A stretch of 64,000 bases of DNA from NCBI RefSeq assembly GCF_024502345.1, contig NZ_JALDNN010000001.1. One strand, 5' to 3'. Below the pieces are notes generated by a model. It searched no databases. It was given only the letters and a program-made list of their open reading frames with translations, and was not told the DNA's origin. Both the position numbers and the translations under genes were made by a program. Shown piece by piece: positions 8,361-61,985 of this stretch (the stretch's first letter is position 1; each line of letters begins with the position of its first letter). This DNA is from Escherichia coli (lineage in GTDB: Bacteria > Pseudomonadota > Gammaproteobacteria > Enterobacterales > Enterobacteriaceae).

Positions 8361-9165
8361 ATGTTTTCTACAAACTTAATACAGAGTAATTATGGTGATT
8401 TAAATATTAAAAGCCTGGCTTTCGAATCTTTTAAAGAAAGGCTTGAGTCTACCATGGCGGCACTCACTTTCTTTATATCAACGGGTCAATGTGACTGCGA
8501 TGAAATAGCAGAGTCGAACTTCAATCGTATGATTGCCTATATGTCTAACATTAACTATGATGCCTCAAAGCCAGGAGCGCCAGCACTTAGTTTTGATACG
8601 TATCTGCAGGACAATGTTAAATATAGAGTGATAATTAATAATCTTTATGGCAGTGAGTTTCGGATAAGAGATGTTAATGAGAATTTTGTTGGGATGGATT
8701 TTACCTGTGAATTCCGACCCGAAAAAATGACGAATTTGATCAATATAAAAAATAGGTTGGTTATTCATTATTTAAGGACTATATACTATGAAAAAAATTA
8801 TATACATCCTGCCGGGAGCATTTTTGCTGCGATTCAAAAAAAATGAGAGTCTCCTAAAGTTTCCTTCGATAATATCAATGCTTAATATCAATCTTCTTTT
8901 TAATCCACTAAATCTTCCGGGAATGGGAAGTGGTGTGCTTGAAGATATTATGAGTATTCCAGATAGTTCACTTAGAAAACGTCTCGGGTATGAGGTTTTA
9001 AGCTTCTCACTACAGGCACATTCATTGAGCCAGGAATGTATTGATAAGTTGGACATTTTTTTCGCTGACGATCTGTTTAAATATGAGTCAGTATGCATCG
9101 CCGCGATGGAACATTTAAAAAGTAAAGCAACGGCCCCTATACAAAACGGACCGTTGCCAGCATAA
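8361..9165 (+). pseudogene. ydjO: ydjO-like ORF split by a +1 frameshift (fragments 8361..8846 and 8788..9165)
   Basis: Two overlapping same-strand ORFs in frames 0 and +1; combined span 805 nt, one base more than a multiple of three; shift lies in 8788..8846, which contains A7 and A8 runs; low-GC locus. Confidence 0.6.
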
Positions 9166-50848: not shown

Positions 50849-50985
50849 CGTGTAATGGCTGCATGAAATAAACAATAAAATATAAATAACATTATCAGCC
50901 TGCTGACGGCTTGAAGAGAGTCACAGTATCTTGTGCAACATTATTGGAAAGAGTGAGGGGCGAGGTAGCGAAGTGGAAAAATGTT

Positions 50986-51091
50986 AAAAAAAAGCCCATC
51001 GTGGGAGATGGGCAAAGACTACACACAGCAATTCGTTGTTTCACTCAGGGGATTTCCATGCTTATAAATCAATATGTTGATTTATAACCGT
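50986..51091 (-). ncRNA. rprA: Small regulatory RNA RprA (Hfq-dependent activator of rpoS translation)
   Basis: Minus strand reads ACGGTTATAAATCAACATATTGATTTATAAGCATGGAAATCCCCTGAGTGAAACAACGAATTGCTGTGTGTAGTCTTTGCCCATCTCCCACGATGGGC followed by a T-run; between ydiL and ydiK. Confidence 0.9.
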
Positions 51092-52602: not shown

Positions 52603-55600
52603 ATGATTCCACAGATTTCCCAGGCACCCGGCGTCGTTCAACTGGTGCTTAATTTTTTGCAAGAGCTGGAGCAACAAGGTTTTACCGGCGATACGGCGAC
52701 AAGTTATGCCGATCGTCTGACAATGTCGACCGACAACAGTATTTACCAACTTCTCCCCGATGCGGTGGTATTTCCGCGTTCAACCGCAGATGTGGCGCTG
52801 ATCGCCCGTCTTGCCGCGCAGGAACGCTATTCATCGCTGATCTTTACCCCCCGCGGCGGCGGCACCGGCACTAACGGTCAGGCGCTCAACCAGGGGATTA
52901 TTGTTGATATGTCCCGCCATATGAACCGCATCATCGAAATTAACCCTGAAGAGGGCTGGGTGCGCGTTGAGGCCGGGGTGATAAAAGATCAACTCAATCA
53001 GTACCTGAAACCGTTCGGCTACTTTTTTGCGCCGGAACTTTCGACCAGCAACCGGGCAACGCTCGGTGGGATGATCAATACCGATGCATCCGGTCAGGGA
53101 TCGCTGGTCTATGGCAAAACGTCAGATCACGTACTTGGCGTACGCGCGGTGTTGTTGGGGGGCGATATTCTCGATACGCAACCTTTACCCGTCGAATTGG
53201 CGGAAACGCTGGGTAAATCCAATACCACAATCGGGCGAATTTATAACACGGTTTATCAACGTTGCCGTCAGCAACGCCAGTTAATTATCGACAACTTCCC
53301 CAAACTTAACCGCTTTCTTACCGGTTACGATCTGCGTCATGTCTTTAACGATGAGATGACCGAGTTCGACCTGACGCGCATTCTGACGGGTTCAGAAGGG
53401 ACGCTGGCCTTTATTACCGAAGCGCGGCTGGATATTACGCGCTTGCCTAAAGTGCGCCGTCTGGTGAACGTCAAATATGACTCTTTTGACTCTGCGCTGC
53501 GTAACGCGCCGTTTATGGTTGAGGCGCGGGCGCTTTCGGTAGAGACGGTGGACTCAAAAGTGCTGAATCTGGCGCGGGAAGATATTGTCTGGCATTCCGT
53601 CAGCGAGTTGATTACCGATGTGCCTGACCAAGAGATGCTCGGGCTGAACATTGTGGAATTTGCTGGTGATGATGAGGCGCTGATTGATGAGCGGGTAAAT
53701 GCACTCTGTGCGCGGTTGGATGAGCTGATCGCCAGTCATCAAGCAGGTGTCATCGGCTGGCAGGTGTGCCGTGAGCTGGCGGGGGTTGAACGTATCTATG
53801 CAATGCGCAAAAAAGCCGTTGGTCTGCTTGGCAATGCCAAAGGTGCCGCTAAGCCAATTCCGTTTGCTGAGGATACCTGCGTACCGCCGGAACACCTGGC
53901 GGATTATATTGCTGAATTTCGCGCGCTGCTCGACAGCCACGGCTTAAGCTACGGTATGTTCGGTCACGTCGACGCAGGTGTCTTGCACGTCCGTCCAGCG
54001 CTGGATATGTGCGATCCTCAACAAGAGATTTTGATGAAGCAAATCTCTGATGACGTGGTGGCGCTGACTGCGAAATACGGTGGTTTGTTGTGGGGCGAGC
54101 ACGGCAAAGGTTTTCGCGCTGAATACAGCCCGGCGTTTTTCGGTGAGGAACTTTTTGCAGAACTGCGCAAAGTGAAAGCGGCATTTGACCCGCATAACCG
54201 ACTCAACCCAGGGAAGATTTGCCCGCCAGAAGGTCTCGATGCGCCGATGATGAAAGTGGACGCGGTGAAGCGCGGTACATTCGATCGGCAGATCCCCATT
54301 GCGGTACGCCAGCAGTGGCGCGGTGCGATGGAGTGTAACGGCAACGGTTTATGCTTCAACTTTGATGCCCGTAGTCCGATGTGTCCGTCGATGAAGATCA
54401 CCCAGAACCGGATTCATTCACCGAAAGGGCGCGCAACGCTGGTGCGTGAATGGCTGCGTTTGTTGGCGGATCGCGGCGTTGATCCACTCAAACTGGAACA
54501 AGAACTGCCTGAATCCGGCGTCAGTTTGCGGACGTTAATTGCCCGCACGCGCAATAGCTGGCATGCGAATAAAGGCGAATATGACTTCTCACACGAAGTC
54601 AAAGAGGCGATGTCGGGCTGTCTGGCCTGTAAAGCGTGTTCGACCCAGTGCCCCATCAAAATTGATGTGCCGGAGTTTCGCTCTCGTTTTCTGCAGCTCT
54701 ATCACACCCGTTATTTACGCCCGCTGCGCGACCACCTCGTCGCTACGGTCGAGAGCTACGCGCCGCTGATGGCACGCGCGCCGAAAACCTTTAACTTCTT
54801 CATTAACCAGCCGCTGGTGCGCAAACTCTCGGAAAAACATATCGGCATGGTTGATTTGCCGCTGCTGTCGGTCCCCTCGCTACAACAACAAATGGTGGGG
54901 CATCGCTCGGCAAACATGACGCTGGAACAGCTTGAATCTCTCAATGCAGAGCAGAAAGCGCGCACAGTGTTGGTGGTGCAGGACCCCTTTACCAGCTATT
55001 ACGATGCGCAAGTGGTGGCGGATTTTGTCCGTCTGGTCGAAAAATTAGGTTTCCAGCCTGTGTTACTGCCATTTTCGCCAAATGGCAAAGCCCAGCATAT
55101 TAAAGGTTTTCTTAATCGTTTTGCGAAGACGGCGAAAAAGACGGCGGATTTCCTCAACCGTATGGCGAAGCTGGGTATGCCAATGGTGGGCGTCGATCCG
55201 GCGCTGGTACTTTGTTATCGCGATGAATATAAACTGGCGCTGGGCGAGGAGCGTGGCGAGTTTAACGTCTTACTGGCGAATGAATGGCTGGCAAGCGCAC
55301 TTGAGTCACAGCCAGTGGCTACAGTCAGCGGTGAATCATGGTATTTCTTTGGTCACTGTACCGAAGTTACCGCCTTGCCGGGTGCGCCAGCACAATGGGC
55401 CGCGATATTTGCCCGTTTTGGCGCGAAACTGGAAAATGTCAGCGTGGGTTGCTGCGGCATGGCAGGGACTTACGGACATGAAGCGAAAAACCATGAAAAT
55501 TCGCTCGGGATCTATGAGTTATCCTGGCATCAGGCTATGCAGCGACTGCCGCGTAACCGCTGTCTGGCGACCGGATATTCCTGCCGTAGCCAGGTAAAAC

Positions 55601-55659
55601 GGGTTGAAGGCACGGGGGTACGCCATCCTGTGCAGGCTTTACTGGAGATTATTAAATGA
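52603..55659 (+). CDS. ydiJ: Large FAD-linked oxidase with Fe-S/CCG domains (D-2-hydroxyglutarate dehydrogenase-like)
   Basis: 1018-aa ORF; N-terminal FAD-binding PCMH-type domain, Cys-rich C-terminal half. Confidence 0.93.
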   Translation: MIPQISQAPGVVQLVLNFLQELEQQGFTGDTATSYADRLTMSTDNSIYQLLPDAVVFPRSTADVALIARLAAQERYSSLIFTPRGGGTGTNGQALNQGIIVDMSRHMNRIIEINPEEGWVRVEAGVIKDQLNQYLKPFGYFFAPELSTSNRATLGGMINTDASGQGSLVYGKTSDHVLGVRAVLLGGDILDTQPLPVELAETLGKSNTTIGRIYNTVYQRCRQQRQLIIDNFPKLNRFLTGYDLRHVFNDEMTEFDLTRILTGSEGTLAFITEARLDITRLPKVRRLVNVKYDSFDSALRNAPFMVEARALSVETVDSKVLNLAREDIVWHSVSELITDVPDQEMLGLNIVEFAGDDEALIDERVNALCARLDELIASHQAGVIGWQVCRELAGVERIYAMRKKAVGLLGNAKGAAKPIPFAEDTCVPPEHLADYIAEFRALLDSHGLSYGMFGHVDAGVLHVRPALDMCDPQQEILMKQISDDVVALTAKYGGLLWGEHGKGFRAEYSPAFFGEELFAELRKVKAAFDPHNRLNPGKICPPEGLDAPMMKVDAVKRGTFDRQIPIAVRQQWRGAMECNGNGLCFNFDARSPMCPSMKITQNRIHSPKGRATLVREWLRLLADRGVDPLKLEQELPESGVSLRTLIARTRNSWHANKGEYDFSHEVKEAMSGCLACKACSTQCPIKIDVPEFRSRFLQLYHTRYLRPLRDHLVATVESYAPLMARAPKTFNFFINQPLVRKLSEKHIGMVDLPLLSVPSLQQQMVGHRSANMTLEQLESLNAEQKARTVLVVQDPFTSYYDAQVVADFVRLVEKLGFQPVLLPFSPNGKAQHIKGFLNRFAKTAKKTADFLNRMAKLGMPMVGVDPALVLCYRDEYKLALGEERGEFNVLLANEWLASALESQPVATVSGESWYFFGHCTEVTALPGAPAQWAAIFARFGAKLENVSVGCCGMAGTYGHEAKNHENSLGIYELSWHQAMQRLPRNRCLATGYSCRSQVKRVEGTGVRHPVQALLEIIK

Positions 55660-56066
55660 TATGGAAACGGAAAATCACCCTGGAAGCACTGAATGCTATG
55701 GGTGAAGGAAACATGGTGGGGTTCCTGGATATTCGCTTTGAACATATTGGTGATGACACCCTTGAAGCGACAATGCCAGTAGACTCGCGGACAAAGCAGC
55801 CTTTCGGGTTGCTGCATGGAGGAGCATCCGTGGTACTGGCCGAAAGTATCGGTTCCGTTGCCGGTTATTTATGTACCGAAGGTGAGCAAAAAGTGGTTGG
55901 TCTGGAAATCAATGCTAACCACGTCCGCTCGGCACGAGAAGGGCGGGTGCGCGGCGTATGCAAACCGTTGCATCTCGGTTCGCGTCACCAGGTCTGGCAG
56001 ATTGAAATCTTCGATGAGAAAGGGCGTTTGTGCTGTTCGTCACGATTGACGACCGCCATTTTGTGA
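55656..56066 (+). CDS. menI: 1,4-dihydroxy-2-naphthoyl-CoA thioesterase (hotdog fold)
   Basis: 136-aa ORF; 4-nt overlap with ydiJ stop. Confidence 0.93.
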   Translation: MIWKRKITLEALNAMGEGNMVGFLDIRFEHIGDDTLEATMPVDSRTKQPFGLLHGGASVVLAESIGSVAGYLCTEGEQKVVGLEINANHVRSAREGRVRGVCKPLHLGSRHQVWQIEIFDEKGRLCCSSRLTTAIL

Positions 56067-56354: not shown

Positions 56355-56529
56355 TCCTGACTTAATGCCGCAAGTTCGCCAAATCGACCTGGATTAACCT
56401 CCGTCCAGGTTCGATGACCTTCTTAATACTGCTTATCTACCGCCTGATATTGTTCAAAAATAATACTAATCGCAGTTTGTGTTAAAACGGCGGGTTAGCT
56501 TTATGAGATTATTCTTATCGCCCCTTCAA

Positions 56530-56612
56530 GAGCTAAGCCACTGAGAGTGCCGGAGATAAGCGCCGGATGGGGTAGAAACCCTTAAGCCTGTGTCGCACAG
56601 ACTTAAGGGTTT
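56530..56612 (+). ncRNA. rydB: Candidate small RNA with intrinsic terminator (position fits RydB)
   Basis: Hairpin cccttaag-cctgtgtcgcacaga-cttaaggg followed by ttttcttattt, about 200 nt past ydiH stop in the ydiH-sufA spacer; 5' end and strand not verified. Confidence 0.4.
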
Positions 56613-56901: not shown

Positions 56902-57270
56902 ATGGACATGCATTCAGGAACCTTTAACCCACAAGATTTCGCCTGGCAAGGCTTAACGCTGACACCCGCAGCGGCGATACACATCCGTGAGCTGGTGGCA
57001 AAGCAGCCGGGTATGGTCGGCGTGCGCTTAGGCGTGAAGCAAACGGGCTGCGCGGGCTTTGGCTATGTGCTCGACAGTGTTAGCGAGCCGGACAAAGACG
57101 ATCTGCTGTTTGAACACGACGGCGCGAAGCTGTTTGTCCCGCTGCAAGCGATGCCGTTTATTGATGGCACGGAAGTCGATTTCGTTCGTGAAGGACTTAA
57201 TCAGATATTCAAATTTCACAACCCTAAAGCCCAGAATGAATGTGGCTGTGGCGAAAGCTTTGGGGTATAG
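56902..57270 (+). CDS. sufA: Fe-S cluster A-type carrier
   Basis: 122-aa ORF with C-terminal CGCGESF motif. Confidence 0.96.
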
Positions 57271-57278
57271 GCGGTACT

Positions 57279-58766
57279 ATGTCTCGTAATACTGAAGCAA
57301 CTGACGATGTCAAAACCTGGACCGGCGGCCCGCTGAATTATAAAGAAGGATTCTTCACCCAGTTAGCCACCGATGAGCTGGCAAAGGGGATAAACGAAGA
57401 GGTGGTGCGCGCAATTTCGGCGAAGCGTAATGAGCCGGAGTGGATGCTGGAGTTTCGTCTAAACGCCTATCGCGCATGGCTGGAGATGGAAGAACCGCAC
57501 TGGTTGAAAGCGCACTACGACAAGCTGAATTATCAGGATTACAGCTACTACTCAGCACCATCGTGCGGTAATTGTGACGACACTTGCGCGTCTGAACCTG
57601 GCGCGGTGCAGCAAACTGGCGCGAACGCCTTTTTAAGTAAAGAGGTGGAGGCGGCGTTTGAGCAGTTGGGCGTTCCCGTGCGGGAAGGCAAAGAGGTGGC
57701 GGTGGATGCCATTTTCGACTCAGTTTCGGTTGCCACTACTTATCGCGAAAAACTGGCGGAGCAGGGAATTATTTTCTGTTCCTTTGGTGAGGCGATCCAC
57801 GATCACCCGGAACTGGTGCGTAAATATCTCGGCACCGTGGTGCCGGGGAATGACAACTTCTTTGCCGCGCTTAATGCGGCGGTAGCCTCTGACGGTACGT
57901 TTATTTATGTGCCTAAAGGCGTGCGCTGCCCGATGGAACTTTCCACCTATTTTCGCATTAACGCGGAAAAAACCGGGCAGTTTGAGCGCACCATTCTGGT
58001 GGCCGACGAAGACAGCTACGTCAGCTACATTGAAGGCTGTTCCGCTCCGGTGCGTGACAGCTATCAGTTACACGCGGCAGTGGTGGAAGTCATCATCCAT
58101 AAAAACGCCGAGGTGAAATATTCCACGGTACAAAACTGGTTCCCTGGCGATAACAACACCGGCGGTATTCTCAACTTCGTCACCAAGCGTGCTTTGTGCG
58201 AAGGCGAAAACAGCAAAATGTCATGGACGCAATCAGAAACCGGGTCAGCGATTACGTGGAAATATCCCAGCTGCATTTTGCGCGGCGATAACTCCATTGG
58301 TGAGTTTTACTCAGTGGCGCTGACCAGCGGTCATCAGCAAGCGGATACCGGCACCAAGATGATCCACATCGGTAAAAACACCAAATCGACCATTATCTCG
58401 AAAGGGATCTCTGCCGGACATAGTCAGAACAGTTATCGCGGCTTAGTGAAAATCATGCCGACGGCAACCAATGCGCGCAATTTCACTCAGTGCGACTCAA
58501 TGCTGATTGGCGCTAATTGTGGGGCGCATACCTTCCCGTATGTCGAATGTCGCAATAACAGCGCACAACTGGAGCACGAGGCAACGACATCACGTATTGG
58601 TGAAGATCAACTGTTTTACTGCCTGCAACGCGGGATCAGCGAAGAAGACGCCATCTCGATGATTGTTAACGGTTTCTGCAAAGACGTGTTCTCAGAACTG
58701 CCGCTGGAATTTGCCGTTGAAGCACAAAAACTCCTCGCCATCAGTCTTGAACACAGCGTCGGATAA
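57279..58766 (+). CDS. sufB: Fe-S cluster assembly scaffold SufB
   Basis: 495-aa ORF from [24 protein letters not shown]; ORF-track 508-aa extension rejected. Confidence 0.96.
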
Positions 58767-58775
58767 GGAATAAAC

Positions 58776-59522
58776 ATGTTAAGTATTAAAGATTTACACG
58801 TCAGCGTGGAAGATAAAGCTATCCTGCGTGGATTAAGCCTCGACGTTCGTCCCGGCGAAGTTCACGCCATTATGGGGCCAAACGGTTCGGGCAAAAGTAC
58901 CTTATCGGCAACGCTTGCCGGGCGAGAAGATTATGAAGTGACGGGCGGCACGGTTGAGTTCAAAGGCAAAGATTTGCTTGCGCTGTCGCCGGAAGATCGT
59001 GCAGGCGAAGGCATCTTTATGGCCTTCCAGTATCCGGTGGAGATTCCCGGCGTCAGTAACCAGTTTTTCCTGCAAACGGCACTTAATGCGGTGCGCAGCT
59101 ATCGCGGCCAGGAAACGCTCGACCGCTTTGATTTTCAGGATTTGATGGAAGAGAAAATCGCTCTCCTGAAGATGCCGGAAGATTTATTAACCCGTTCGGT
59201 AAACGTTGGTTTTTCCGGCGGCGAGAAAAAGCGCAACGATATTTTGCAAATGGCGGTGCTGGAACCGGAGTTATGCATTCTTGATGAGTCGGACTCCGGG
59301 CTGGATATTGACGCATTAAAAGTGGTCGCCGATGGCGTGAACTCGCTGCGTGATGGCAAGCGCTCATTCATCATTGTTACGCACTACCAACGCATTCTCG
59401 ACTACATCAAGCCTGATTACGTTCATGTGCTATATCAGGGACGAATTGTGAAATCCGGCGATTTCACGTTGGTCAAACAACTGGAGGAGCAGGGTTATGG
59501 CTGGCTTACCGAACAGCAGTAA
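58776..59522 (+). CDS. sufC: Fe-S cluster assembly ATPase SufC
   Basis: 248-aa ORF with Walker A (GPNGSGKST). Confidence 0.97.
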   Translation: MLSIKDLHVSVEDKAILRGLSLDVRPGEVHAIMGPNGSGKSTLSATLAGREDYEVTGGTVEFKGKDLLALSPEDRAGEGIFMAFQYPVEIPGVSNQFFLQTALNAVRSYRGQETLDRFDFQDLMEEKIALLKMPEDLLTRSVNVGFSGGEKKRNDILQMAVLEPELCILDESDSGLDIDALKVVADGVNSLRDGKRSFIIVTHYQRILDYIKPDYVHVLYQGRIVKSGDFTLVKQLEEQGYGWLTEQQ

Positions 59523-60768
59523 TGCGCTGCAACAGTGGCATCACTTGTTTGAAGCTGAAGGGACAAAACGCTCACCGCAAGCACAGCAGCATTTACAACA
59601 ATTGCTGCGTACCGGACTGCCGACACGTAAACATGAAAACTGGAAATATACGCCGCTGGAAGGGCTGACCAATAGCCAGTTTGTCAGCATTGCGGGAGAG
59701 ATATCCCCACAGCAGCGAGATGCCTTAGCGTTAACGTTAGACGCTGTGCGGCTGGTATTTGTCGATGGACGTTACGTGTCAGCACTGAGCGATGCGACTG
59801 AAGGCAGCGGGTATGAAGTGAGCATTAACGACGACCGTCAGGGGGTACCCGACGCTATTCAGGCGGAAGTGTTTCTGCATTTGACGGAAAGCCTGGCACA
59901 AAGCGTGACGCATATCGCCGTGAAGCGCGGTCAACGGCCGGCAAAGCCATTGCTGTTAATGCATATTACCCAGGGCGTGGCAGGTGAAGAGGTCAACACT
60001 GCCCATTACCGACATCATCTGGATCTGGCGGAAGGTGCCGAAGCAACGGTGATCGAACATTTTGTCAGCCTTAATGATGCTCGTCACTTCACCGGCGCAC
60101 GGTTCACTATCAATGTCGCAGCGAACGCCCACTTGCAGCATATCAAGCTGGCGTTTGAAAACCCGGTCAGTCACCACTTTGCCCATAACGATTTGTTGCT
60201 GGCTGACGATGCCACCGCATTTAGCCATAGTTTCCTGCTGGGTGGCGCAGTGTTACGACACAACACCAGTACGCAACTCAATGGCGAAAACAGCACGCTG
60301 CGGATCAATAGCCTGGCGATGCCGGTGAAAAACGAGGTGTGTGATACCCGTACCTGGCTGGAACACAATAAAGGTTTTTGTAACAGCCGACAGTTGCACA
60401 AAACTATCGTCAGCGACAAAGGCCGCGCGGTATTTAACGGTTTGATCAACGTCGCGCAGCACGCCATCAAAACGGATGGTCAGATGACCAACAATAATCT
60501 GCTGATGGGCAAACTGGCGGAAGTGGATACAAAACCGCAGCTGGAAATCTATGCAGATGATGTGAAATGCAGCCACGGCGCGACGGTGGGGCGTATTGAT
60601 GATGAACAGATGTTCTATCTGCGCTCGCGCGGGATCAATCAGCAGGATGCCCAGCAGATGATCATTTACGCCTTTGCTGCCGAACTGACGGAAGCACTGC
60701 GTGATGAGGGGCTTAAACAGCAGGTGCTGGCCCGAATCGGTCAACGGCTGCCAGGAGGTGCAAGATGA
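59497..60768 (+). CDS. sufD: Fe-S cluster assembly protein SufD
   Basis: 423-aa ORF; overlaps sufC 3' end by 26 nt. Confidence 0.95.
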
Positions 60769-61985
60769 CTTTTTCCGTCGACAAAGTGCGGGCCGACTTT
60801 CCGGTGCTTTCGCGTGAGGTAAACGGTTTGCCGCTGGCTTATCTCGACAGCGCCGCCAGTGCACAGAAACCGAGCCAGGTGATTGACGCCGAGGCCGAGT
60901 TTTATCGTCATGGCTACGCGGCGGTGCATCGCGGTATTCATACCTTAAGCGCTCAGGCGACCGAGAAAATGGAGAACGTGCGCAAGCGGGCATCGCTGTT
61001 TATTAATGCCCGTTCGGCGGAAGAGCTGGTGTTCGTCCGCGGCACGACGGAAGGGATCAATCTGGTCGCCAATAGCTGGGGCAACAGCAATGTGCGGGCG
61101 GGCGATAACATCATCATCAGTCAGATGGAGCACCACGCTAACATTGTCCCCTGGCAGATGCTTTGCGCACGCGTTGGCGCAGAGCTGCGTGTGATCCCTC
61201 TCAACCCCGACGGTACGCTGCAACTGGAGACGCTGCCTACGCTGTTTGATGAGAAAACTCGCCTGCTGGCAATTACTCATGTCTCCAACGTGCTGGGAAC
61301 AGAAAATCCGCTGGCGGAAATAATCACGCTTGCGCACCAGCATGGCGCAAAAGTGCTGGTGGATGGCGCTCAGGCGGTGATGCATCATCCGGTGGATGTT
61401 CAGGCGCTGGATTGCGACTTTTACGTGTTCTCCGGGCATAAACTGTATGGCCCCACCGGAATTGGCATTCTTTATGTGAAAGAAGCCTTGTTGCAGGAGA
61501 TGCCGCCGTGGGAAGGGGGCGGTTCTATGATCGCCACCGTCAGCCTGAGTGAAGGCACTACCTGGACCAAAGCACCATGGCGGTTTGAAGCCGGTACACC
61601 CAATACCGGGGGCATCATTGGTCTTGGCGCGGCGCTGGAGTATGTTTCGGCGCTGGGGCTTAATAACATAGCCGAGTATGAACAGAATCTGATGCACTAC
61701 GCGCTATCACAGCTGGAATCTGTACCGGATCTCACTCTCTATGGCCCGCGGAACAGGCTTGGCGTTATTGCTTTTAATCTTGGTAAACACCACGCCTATG
61801 ATGTTGGCAGTTTTCTCGATAACTACGGCATTGCTGTGCGTACCGGACATCACTGCGCGATGCCATTAATGGCCTATTACAACGTCCCTGCTATGTGTCG
61901 GGCGTCGCTGGCCATGTATAACACCCATGAAGAAGTGGATCGTCTGGTGACCGGACTGCAACGTATTCACCGTCTGCTGGGATAA
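60765..61985 (+). CDS. sufS: Cysteine desulfurase SufS (PLP-dependent)
   Basis: 406-aa [39 protein letters not shown]; 4-nt overlap with sufD. Confidence 0.97.

What the first reader, a model, noticed from the sequence alone, without database searches (positions are those of the whole stretch)
59497..60768. Overlapping junctions consistent with translational coupling
sufC-sufD overlap by 26 nt; sufD-sufS, ydiJ-menI and ydiT-ydiS overlap by 4 nt; btuE-btuD overlap by 1 nt. These tight junctions are consistent with coupled translation and stoichiometric expression. They are ordinary operon features, reported for completeness.
Basis: seen in the sequence. Interest (0 to 1): 0.12.

Follow-up and report, generated by a model that had tools for sequence, protein, structure and literature searches.

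The report
Overlapping gene junctions in E. coli operons
Five pairs of neighbouring E. coli genes overlap by 1 to 26 bases exactly as described; this is an ordinary, well-known feature of bacterial operons, and only the 26-base sufC-sufD overlap has a small twist, because it is strictly conserved but too long for the usual stop-and-restart coupling of translation.

Summary
The window is E. coli chromosome. All five overlaps are real and match RefSeq annotation:
- sufC/sufD: 26 nt (59497-59522)
- sufD/sufS: ATGA (60765-60768)
- ydiJ/menI: ATGA (55656-55659)
- ydiS/ydiT: ATGA (38778-38781, minus strand)
- btuE/btuD: TAATG (27905)

That is 5 of 45 same-strand neighbour pairs (11%), about the roughly 15% reported for prokaryotic genomes, so it is not more than expected.

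The sufD start is not misassigned. Its ATG, the GGAGGAG Shine-Dalgarno and the 26-nt overlap are identical in 79 of 81 Enterobacteriaceae loci. Synonymous sites of sufC are frozen there (entropy 0.15 against 1.10 upstream, p = 5e-7). Overlaps of 17-29 nt anchored on the same SufC 'GYG' motif persist down to 34% SufD identity.

Overlaps of 4 and 1 nt are the classic termination-reinitiation geometry. Published measurements, however, show reinitiation falling to about zero at a 25-nt overlap. sufD is therefore more likely started through its own strong internal ribosome-binding site, perhaps helped by sufC ribosomes unfolding the mRNA. SufB:C:D is 1:2:1, not 1:1, and three of the pairs are not known complex partners. 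No coupling was measured here.

Verdict: ordinary, already known, low interest.

The parts
58776..59522 (+). sufC coding sequence (Fe-S cluster assembly ATPase), upstream gene of the 26-nt overlap
   Evidence: ORF; RefSeq annotation mapped at 99.5% identity
59483..59489 (+). Shine-Dalgarno GGAGGAG for sufD, encoded inside sufC codons L-E-E, 7 nt before the ATG
   Evidence: Anti-SD duplex -9.3 kcal/mol. The sufC wobble positions at -14, -11 and -8 are invariant or nearly so in 79 species, while neighbouring wobble sites vary.
59497..59522 (+). sufC/sufD overlap, 26 nt; sufD is in the +1 frame relative to sufC. The sufD ATG is formed by the SufC Tyr-Gly codons TAT-GGC.
   Evidence: Identical length in 79/81 Enterobacteriaceae loci. 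Wobble entropy 0.15 (sufC frame) and 0.00 (sufD frame) against about 1.1 outside the overlap.
59497..60768 (+). sufD coding sequence, 423 aa (the coordinates given in the finding)
   Evidence: ORF; annotation; matches residues 1-423 of the solved SufD chains 2ZU0/5AWF and residues 3-425 of 1VH4
60753..60759 (+). Shine-Dalgarno AGGAGGT for sufS, inside the 3' end of sufD
   Evidence: Anti-SD duplex -11.6 kcal/mol, spacer 4-5 nt
60765..60768 (+). sufD/sufS ATGA start/stop overlap (4 nt)
   Evidence: ATGA in 78/81 related loci; the other three have +1/+2 nt gaps.
60765..61985 (+). sufS coding sequence (cysteine desulfurase)
55656..55659 (+). ydiJ/menI ATGA overlap (ydiJ 52603-55659, menI 55656-56066)
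   Evidence: moderate SD (UGGAGA, -6.4 kcal/mol)
38778..38781 (-). ydiS/ydiT ATGA overlap (ydiS 38778-40067, ydiT 38488-38781, both on the minus strand)
   Evidence: SD AAGGGAG, -7.6 kcal/mol
27905..27905 (+). btuE/btuD TAATG overlap of 1 nt (btuE 27354-27905, btuD 27905-28654)
   Evidence: btuD has essentially no SD (best duplex -1.5 kcal/mol)

Best explanation
These are ordinary compact junctions inside E. coli polycistronic operons, and the annotated start codons are correct.

The four short junctions have the canonical geometry for termination-reinitiation: ATGA at sufD-sufS, ydiJ-menI and ydiS-ydiT, and TAATG at btuE-btuD. A ribosome finishing the upstream gene sits on, or next to, the next start codon and can restart there. 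btuD lacks a Shine-Dalgarno, so it is the junction most likely to depend on this.

The sufC-sufD junction works differently. The sufD ribosome-binding site (GGAGGAG, 7-nt spacer, ATG) is written into the codons of the conserved SufC C-terminal motif L-E-E-Q-G-Y-G-W. SufC then runs on for 8 more codons, giving a 26-nt overlap. At that distance a terminating ribosome would have to move about 26 nt backwards against oncoming traffic, which published measurements find to be ineffective. sufD is therefore most likely initiated by ribosomes recruited directly to its strong internal Shine-Dalgarno. Translation of sufC may modulate this by unfolding local mRNA structure (positive effect) and by transiently covering the site (negative effect). 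Such an arrangement allows a SufC:SufD output different from 1:1, as the SufBC2D complex requires.

Shown: the overlaps, the RBS positions, their purifying selection and their phylogenetic depth. Inferred: every statement about ribosome behaviour.
For: - Coordinates and annotation.
- SD strengths: sufD -9.3, sufS -11.6, ydiT -7.6, menI -6.4, btuD -1.5 kcal/mol.
- The sufD start is under selection. The 26-nt overlap, ATG and GGAGGAG are identical in 79/81 Enterobacteriaceae loci with SufD identity 74-98%. sufC third-codon-position entropy is 1.10 upstream against 0.15 in the SD plus overlap (Mann-Whitney p = 5e-7). sufD third positions are 0.00 inside against 1.11 downstream (p = 7e-6). The Tyr codon is always TAT, while the adjacent Gly wobble uses all four bases.
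- In eight distant sufABCDSE-type loci (SufD 34-52% identity) the ATG is still inside SufC 'GY(G/A)', and the overlap is 17-29 nt.
- The alternative start TTG at 59545 is present in only 7 of 79 sequences.
- No promoter-like site lies near the suf junctions on the + strand, and counts are not above shuffles.
- Literature: -4 and -1 are the most enriched spacings, and coupling is most efficient from -4 to +3 nt (PMC12548453). Four of five native E. coli ATGA pairs showed strict coupling (PMC6728339). Reinitiation decreases with overlap beyond -10 nt, and overlaps of 25 nt or more are advised to abolish it (PMC4538824).
- SufBCD is 1:2:1 (PMC5571166). In Salmonella ribosome profiling its proportions are reported to be set mainly by translation efficiency (bioRxiv 10.1101/2023.05.25.542305).
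- The predicted cost of opening the sufD initiation region is 14.8 kcal/mol against a median of 9.0 for 58 starts in the window. The median is 14.1 across 79 species.
Against: - No expression data were available, so dependence of any downstream gene on upstream translation is untested.
- One of five native E. coli ATGA pairs (bioBF) was not coupled, so geometry alone does not prove coupling.
- Backward reinitiation over tens of nucleotides has been described in some systems. The MS2 coat/lysis pair at -50 is cited, though there it is attributed to RNA unfolding. Some reinitiation at sufD is therefore not excluded.
- The predicted hairpin over the sufD SD/ATG has no covariation support: 0 compensatory pairs and a consensus energy of only -10 kcal/mol. 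Its columns are invariant because they are dual-coding, so the unfolding component is neither supported nor refuted.
- AT-rich distant loci have low opening energies of 5.8-9.4 kcal/mol.
- Conservation of the overlap could largely reflect protein-level constraint on the SufC C-terminus. This would not explain the frozen synonymous sites.
Confidence: 0.7

Rival explanations
1. All five junctions, including sufC-sufD, are coupled by termination-reinitiation: the terminating ribosome or its 30S subunit scans locally, backwards by 26 nt at sufD, and restarts. This ties downstream output to upstream output.
For: - There is a strong SD just upstream of the sufD ATG that could capture a scanning subunit.
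- The suf operon is spatially tight throughout: +8, +9, -26, -4, +12.
- Coupling at short overlaps is well documented.
Against: - Reinitiation efficiency falls with increasing overlap, to none at -25 nt in E. coli reporters.
- SufC:SufD is 2:1, not 1:1.
- Overlap length varies from 17 to 29 nt among relatives while the RBS stays anchored to the SufC motif. This suggests the position of the stop relative to the start is not the constrained quantity.
Confidence: 0.15
2. The overlaps have no regulatory role. They are neutral by-products of genome compaction and of start/stop codon turnover, and each downstream gene is translated independently from its own ribosome-binding site.
For: - The overlap frequency in the window (11%) is not above the genomic norm.
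- Modelling shows that the observed length distribution of unidirectional overlaps, including long ones, can arise without selection (PMC3887535 abstract).
- ydiJ/menI and btuE/btuD pair functionally unrelated proteins according to their annotation.
- The sufD-sufS junction drifts between -4, +1 and +2 among relatives.
- bioBF is an uncoupled ATGA pair.
Against: - btuD has no recognisable SD (-1.5 kcal/mol), so independent initiation there would be weak.
- 4 of 5 tested native E. coli ATGA pairs were strictly coupled.
- The sufD SD and ATG are under clear purifying selection at synonymous sites. This shows selection on the start site, though not on the overlap as such.
Confidence: 0.15
3. The sufC-sufD overlap is an annotation artefact: sufD really starts downstream of the sufC stop, for example at TTG 59545.
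For: An in-frame TTG exists at codon 17 (59545), beyond the sufC stop.
Against: - That codon is TTG in only 7 of 79 relatives; elsewhere it is CTG, CTC, CTT, CTA or CAT, and it has no SD.
- ATG 59497 and its SD are invariant, with frozen synonymous sites.
- tblastn matches begin at SufD residue 1 in all 80 loci.
- Independent gene calls in distant genomes choose the homologous ATG.
Confidence: 0.02

Closest known systems
Start/stop-overlap gene pairs (ATGA, TGATG/TAATG) coupled by termination-reinitiation, e.g. E. coli hyfHI, astDB, ydbH/ynbE, menDH (Huber et al. 2019, PMC6728339)
   Same: sufD-sufS, ydiJ-menI, ydiS-ydiT (ATGA) and btuE-btuD (TAATG) have exactly this geometry. Three of them have an SD inside the upstream gene, as is typical.
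   Different: None of these four pairs was tested here, and I found no test of them in the literature. btuD lacks an SD. Three pairs are not known to encode subunits of one complex.
Longer out-of-frame overlaps with an internal ribosome-binding site, where coupling (if any) works by ribosome-assisted unfolding of mRNA structure rather than reinitiation (model of Tian and Salis 2015, PMC4538824; MS2 coat/lysis at -50 nt cited in PMC12548453)
   Same: sufC-sufD has d = -26, a strong SD inside the upstream gene, and a predicted above-median cost of opening the initiation region.
   Different: No conserved inhibitory hairpin could be demonstrated, since there is no covariation to test. The dependence of sufD on sufC translation is unmeasured.
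E. coli sufABCDSE operon / SufBC2D scaffold complex (structures 2ZU0, 5AWF, 1VH4)
   Same: The locus is this operon: 99.8% DNA identity to annotated E. coli genomes, and SufD matches the solved chains over residues 1-423.
   Different: Nothing differs. It is an allele of the known operon.

Membership tests
Co-directional overlapping gene pair with start/stop codon overlap (-4 / -1 spacing) | Adjacent genes on the same strand whose start codon shares bases with the upstream stop codon (NTGA or TAATG/TGATG) | tested here: met
   sufD-sufS, ydiJ-menI and ydiS-ydiT are ATGA; btuE-btuD is TAATG. sufC-sufD does not fit this class (-26).
Translationally coupled gene pair (functional definition) | Translation of the downstream gene depends on translation of the upstream gene at constant mRNA level | not testable with these tools
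   This requires a premature-stop reporter assay or ribosome profiling. No such data for these pairs were found in the literature.
Termination-reinitiation coupling applied to sufC-sufD | Stop and restart codons within the efficient range (about -4 to +3 nt; still active at short positive spacings; lost as overlap approaches 25 nt) | tested here: not met
   d = -26.
Termination-reinitiation coupling applied to sufC-sufD | Shine-Dalgarno motif upstream of the restart codon, inside the upstream gene | tested here: met
   GGAGGAG at 59483-59489, -9.3 kcal/mol, conserved at synonymous sites
Coupling by ribosome-assisted unfolding of an inhibitory mRNA structure | Stable structure that sequesters the downstream SD/AUG and lies within the path of ribosomes translating the upstream gene | tested here: inconclusive
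   In E. coli the MFE hairpin spans the SD, the ATG and the sufC stop. The opening energy is 14.8 against a window median of 9.0 kcal/mol, and the median is 14.1 in 79 species. The alignment fold is weak (-10 kcal/mol), with no compensatory changes and invariant columns.
Single transcription unit (operon) spanning each junction | No promoter or terminator between the two genes; co-transcription | tested here: inconclusive
   The overlaps leave no intergenic space. The consensus scan finds no + strand promoter or terminator near the suf junctions, and counts equal shuffles. No RNA data were available.
E. coli sufABCDSE Fe-S cluster assembly operon | Gene order sufA-B-C-D-S-E with proteins matching the characterised ones | tested here: met
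   99.8% identity to 5,400+ E. coli genomes with this annotation. SufD matches PDB SufD over its full length.

The most novel reading that the evidence does not exclude
The long (17-29 nt) sufC-sufD overlap, conserved across Enterobacterales down to tiny endosymbiont-sized genomes, could be a ratio-setting device. It would place the sufD ribosome-binding site under the last codons of sufC and push the stop codon out of reinitiation range. That would deliberately replace 1:1 stop-restart coupling with a balance of unfolding and occlusion by sufC ribosomes, yielding about half as much SufD as SufC, as the SufBC2D complex needs.
Probability: 0.15. Interest if true: 0.3.

Novelty: already known. 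Interest (0 to 1): 0.08.

Why it matters
It matters little. Overlapping start/stop junctions and their link to translational coupling have been textbook material since the 1980s, and the suf, btu and ydi operons are annotated with exactly these coordinates.

Two points are useful:
- The sufD start codon is firmly validated by comparative data.
- The 26-nt overlap should not be lumped with the 4-nt and 1-nt ones when inferring mechanism or when re-engineering the suf operon. Separating sufC from sufD would destroy the native sufD ribosome-binding site, or else alter the SufC C-terminus.

Tried and rejected
1. A conserved RNA structure at the sufC-sufD junction. The alignment fold of 79 sequences gave a weak consensus with no compensatory pairs. 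The dual-coding columns do not vary, so the test has no power.
2. The search for homologous proteins with SufD. The list was saturated with relatives of at least 78% identity and did not reach distant lineages. I used the 50%-cluster representative search plus contig look-ups instead.
3. Literature searches for direct evidence of coupling in suf and btuCED found nothing specific.
4. Misassigned sufD start at TTG 59545: rejected.
5. A longer sufB ORF starting at 57240 would overlap sufA by 31 nt. It was not pursued. RefSeq places the start at 57279, 8 nt after sufA, and from my own recollection the K-12 SufB protein begins MSRNTEAT.
6. Internal promoters or terminators in the suf operon: none above shuffle expectation.
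7. Programmed frameshifting to make a SufC-SufD fusion was considered because sufD is in the +1 frame. The fused proteins seen in the database (P0001, P0003, P0006, P0008) each stand for one sequence on one contig. The two whose junction I could read, P0001 and P0006, have deletions inside the overlap, consistent with rare mutations or assembly errors.

Full report
**Identity of the window.** The region is E. coli chromosome. Window 56800-62500 matches 5,424 of 5,426 complete E. coli genomes, the best at 99.8% identity, with the annotation sufA-sufB-sufC-sufD-sufS-sufE. The rest of the window carries chbBCARFG, katE, thrS-infC-rpmI-rplT, pheMST-ihfA, btuCED, ydiQRST-fadK, ydiJ-menI and ldtE. 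I mapped the RefSeq coding sequences onto the window by BLAST.

**Check of the observation.** Every overlap claimed is present, both in the raw ORFs and in the RefSeq coordinates:
- sufC 58776-59522 and sufD 59497-60768 share 26 nt.
- sufD and sufS (60765-61985) share ATGA.
- ydiJ (52603-55659) and menI (55656-56066) share ATGA.
- ydiS (38778-40067, minus) and ydiT (38488-38781, minus) share ATGA.
- btuE (27354-27905) and btuD (27905-28654) share the A of TAATG.

The finding's coordinates are simply the sufD gene. Five of the 45 same-strand neighbouring pairs in the window overlap (11%). A 720-genome survey reports about 15% for most prokaryotic groups (PMC6728339). Overlaps of 4 and 1 nt are the two most enriched spacings, and more than 80% of overlaps are shorter than 30 bp (PMC12548453). 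Ten more pairs in the window are only 3-14 nt apart.

**Ribosome-binding sites.** Scoring the 25 nt upstream of each start against the 16S rRNA 3' end gives the following:

| Gene | Shine-Dalgarno | Duplex energy (kcal/mol) | Note |
|---|---|---|---|
| sufD | GGAGGAG | -9.3 | 7-nt spacer, at 59483-59489 inside sufC |
| sufS | AGGAGGT | -11.6 | |
| ydiT | AAGGGAG | -7.6 | |
| menI | UGGAGA | -6.4 | |
| btuD | none usable | -1.5 | |

Four downstream genes thus have an RBS inside the upstream gene's 3' end. btuD does not, which makes it the junction most likely to need a ribosome handed over from btuE.

The ATG at 59497 is the first start codon after the in-frame stop, so no longer version exists. 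A scan of one genome per species returned 80 loci from Enterobacteriaceae with SufD identity of 74-98%, and all of them match from SufD residue 1.

- In 79 of 81 sequences (window included) the overlap is exactly 26 nt with an ATG start. The two exceptions have an early stop inside sufC, but the same junction sequence.
- Column entropies show the signature of dual constraint. Third positions of sufC codons average 1.10 bits in the 55 codons upstream. They average only 0.15 bits at the three SD wobble sites plus the eight overlap codons (Mann-Whitney p = 5e-7).
- sufD third positions are 0.00 inside the overlap against 1.11 downstream (p = 7e-6).
- The Tyr codon that supplies the 'AT' of the ATG is always TAT. 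The Gly wobble base immediately before it uses all four nucleotides (1.59 bits), so the invariance is not just lack of divergence.
- The only downstream alternative, TTG at 59545, is TTG in 7 of 79 sequences and a non-start Leu/His codon elsewhere.
- SufD as annotated matches the crystallised protein over residues 1-423 (2ZU0, 5AWF, 1VH4). This shows only that structural biologists used the same start.

**Phylogenetic depth.** I took representatives of 50%-identity clusters and looked up their contigs.

- Eight sufABCDSE-type loci with SufD identity of 34-52% were examined. Three sit on records of only 0.46-1.08 Mb.
- Their sufC-sufD overlaps are 26, 29, 20, 26, 23, 17, 26 and 23 nt.
- In every one the sufD ATG lies in the SufC motif G-Y-(G/A), and the SD lies in the preceding (L/I)-E-E codons.
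- What varies is how many residues SufC carries after that motif.
- A more distant sufBCD locus without sufS (33% identity) has a +12 nt gap although SufC still has 'GYSW'. The overlap is thus a lineage trait, not universal.
- The sufD-sufS junction is ATGA in 78 of 81 loci and +1/+2 nt in the remaining three. In the distant loci it ranges from +6 to -32 as called. This junction drifts.

**Mechanism.** For -4 and -1 spacings, the literature supports termination-reinitiation. Coupling is most efficient from -4 to +3 nt, and four of five native E. coli ATGA pairs were strictly coupled, with one (bioBF) not coupled. I therefore rate coupling at sufD-sufS, ydiJ-menI, ydiS-ydiT and btuE-btuD as likely but unproven.

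For sufC-sufD the same literature argues against that mechanism. In systematically varied E. coli operons, reinitiation fell linearly once overlaps exceeded about 10 nt and was absent at -25. This was attributed to backward-moving 30S subunits colliding with elongating ribosomes, and the authors advise overlaps of 25 nt or more to avoid reinitiation coupling (PMC4538824). By their definition sufC-sufD has d = -26.

The remaining routes are direct recruitment to the strong internal SD, and assistance by sufC ribosomes unfolding structure.
- The E. coli minimum-energy fold pairs the SD/ATG with the region around the sufC stop.
- The ensemble cost of opening -18..+13 is 14.8 kcal/mol, against a median of 9.0 for 58 starts in the window (rank 52 of 58).
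- The median is 14.1 across 79 species.
- The alignment fold is weak and has no compensatory pairs, because the columns are invariant. AT-rich relatives give low values.
- The unfolding component is therefore an inference only.

**Stoichiometry.** SufB:SufC:SufD is 1:2:1 (PMC5571166). A Salmonella ribosome-profiling preprint reports that SufBCD proportions are set mainly by translation efficiency. That fits tuned, unequal initiation rates better than 1:1 hand-over at sufC-sufD. YdiJ (annotated as a D-2-hydroxyglutarate dehydrogenase) and MenI (a thioesterase) have no known fixed-ratio relationship. Neither do BtuE (a peroxidase) and BtuD (a transporter ATPase), or SufD and SufS. YdiS/YdiT resemble FixC/FixX partners, which I state from general knowledge and did not test here.

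**Comparison and verdict.** The four short junctions belong to the well-described class of start/stop-overlap pairs. sufC-sufD belongs to the less common, but also known, class of longer out-of-frame overlaps with an internal RBS. Nothing here departs from existing annotation or concepts. The one modestly interesting detail is that the sufD RBS is anchored in a protein-constrained SufC motif and kept, with a long overlap, across Enterobacterales. I rate the finding as already known and of low interest. The most novel reading not excluded is that the long overlap is a device to set the 2:1 SufC:SufD ratio. I give that a probability of about 0.15, and only moderate interest if true.

Noticed in passing
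window 59498-59505 (inside the sufC/sufD overlap): The overlap contains a tandem 4-nt repeat, TGGCTGGC. The protein database holds four SufC-SufD fusion proteins (P0001, P0003, P0006, P0008), each standing for one sequence on one contig. In P0001 the junction reads ...LEEQGYG|LPNSS..., as expected from loss of one TGGC copy; P0006 has a larger deletion at the same place. These are probably rare slippage mutants or assembly errors.
   Followed up: partly
window 30218-31654 (selO): selO carries a premature stop: the ORF ends at 31567 (449 aa), against the 478-aa RefSeq gene that maps to 30218-31654 at 98.5% identity. It may be a pseudogene allele in this strain.
   Followed up: no
window 8361-9165 (ydjO) and 16736-18370 (espL1): ydjO aligns at only 94.8% identity and is out of frame, with many stops. 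The type III effector gene espL1 matches only from base 313 of 1899, leaving a 544-aa ORF. Both look like disrupted genes.
   Followed up: no
window 50984-51091 (-), 56520-56580 (+), 22188-22312 (+), 26152-26310 (+): There are four Rfam matches above gathering score: RprA sRNA, RydB sRNA (between ydiH and sufA), the Phe leader, and STnc540 (overlapping the ihfA 3' end and the ihfA-btuC spacer).
   Followed up: no
window 60253-60993 (-) and 60945-61697 (-): Two long ORFs (246 and 250 aa) run antisense to sufD and sufS. They were not examined and are most likely chance ORFs opposite highly biased coding sequence.
   Followed up: no
window 57240-57278: The longest sufB ORF starts at ATG 57240 and would overlap sufA by 31 nt. 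RefSeq uses ATG 57279, 8 nt after the sufA stop. The choice of start was not tested comparatively.
   Followed up: no
L073, L075, L078-L081, L083 (Cedecea, Buttiauxella and related loci), about +26 from the sufD ATG: A 6-nt insertion (two extra SufD residues) sits immediately after the sufC stop codon, in the first position where an indel no longer affects both reading frames.
   Followed up: no
window about 26210-26311 (ihfA-btuC spacer), compared with L002 7247-25945: E. coli strain TUM1887 has an approximately 19-kb block of phage tail, baseplate and integrase genes (with a Hok/Gef gene) between ihfA and btuC. This block is absent from the window, so the spacer appears to be a prophage insertion site in some strains.
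   Followed up: no
window 27875-27907 (btuE-btuD junction): btuD is the only one of the five downstream genes with no recognisable Shine-Dalgarno (best duplex -1.5 kcal/mol). Its initiation region has an above-median opening energy of 12.7 kcal/mol. It is the best candidate in the window for obligatory coupling.
   Followed up: partly
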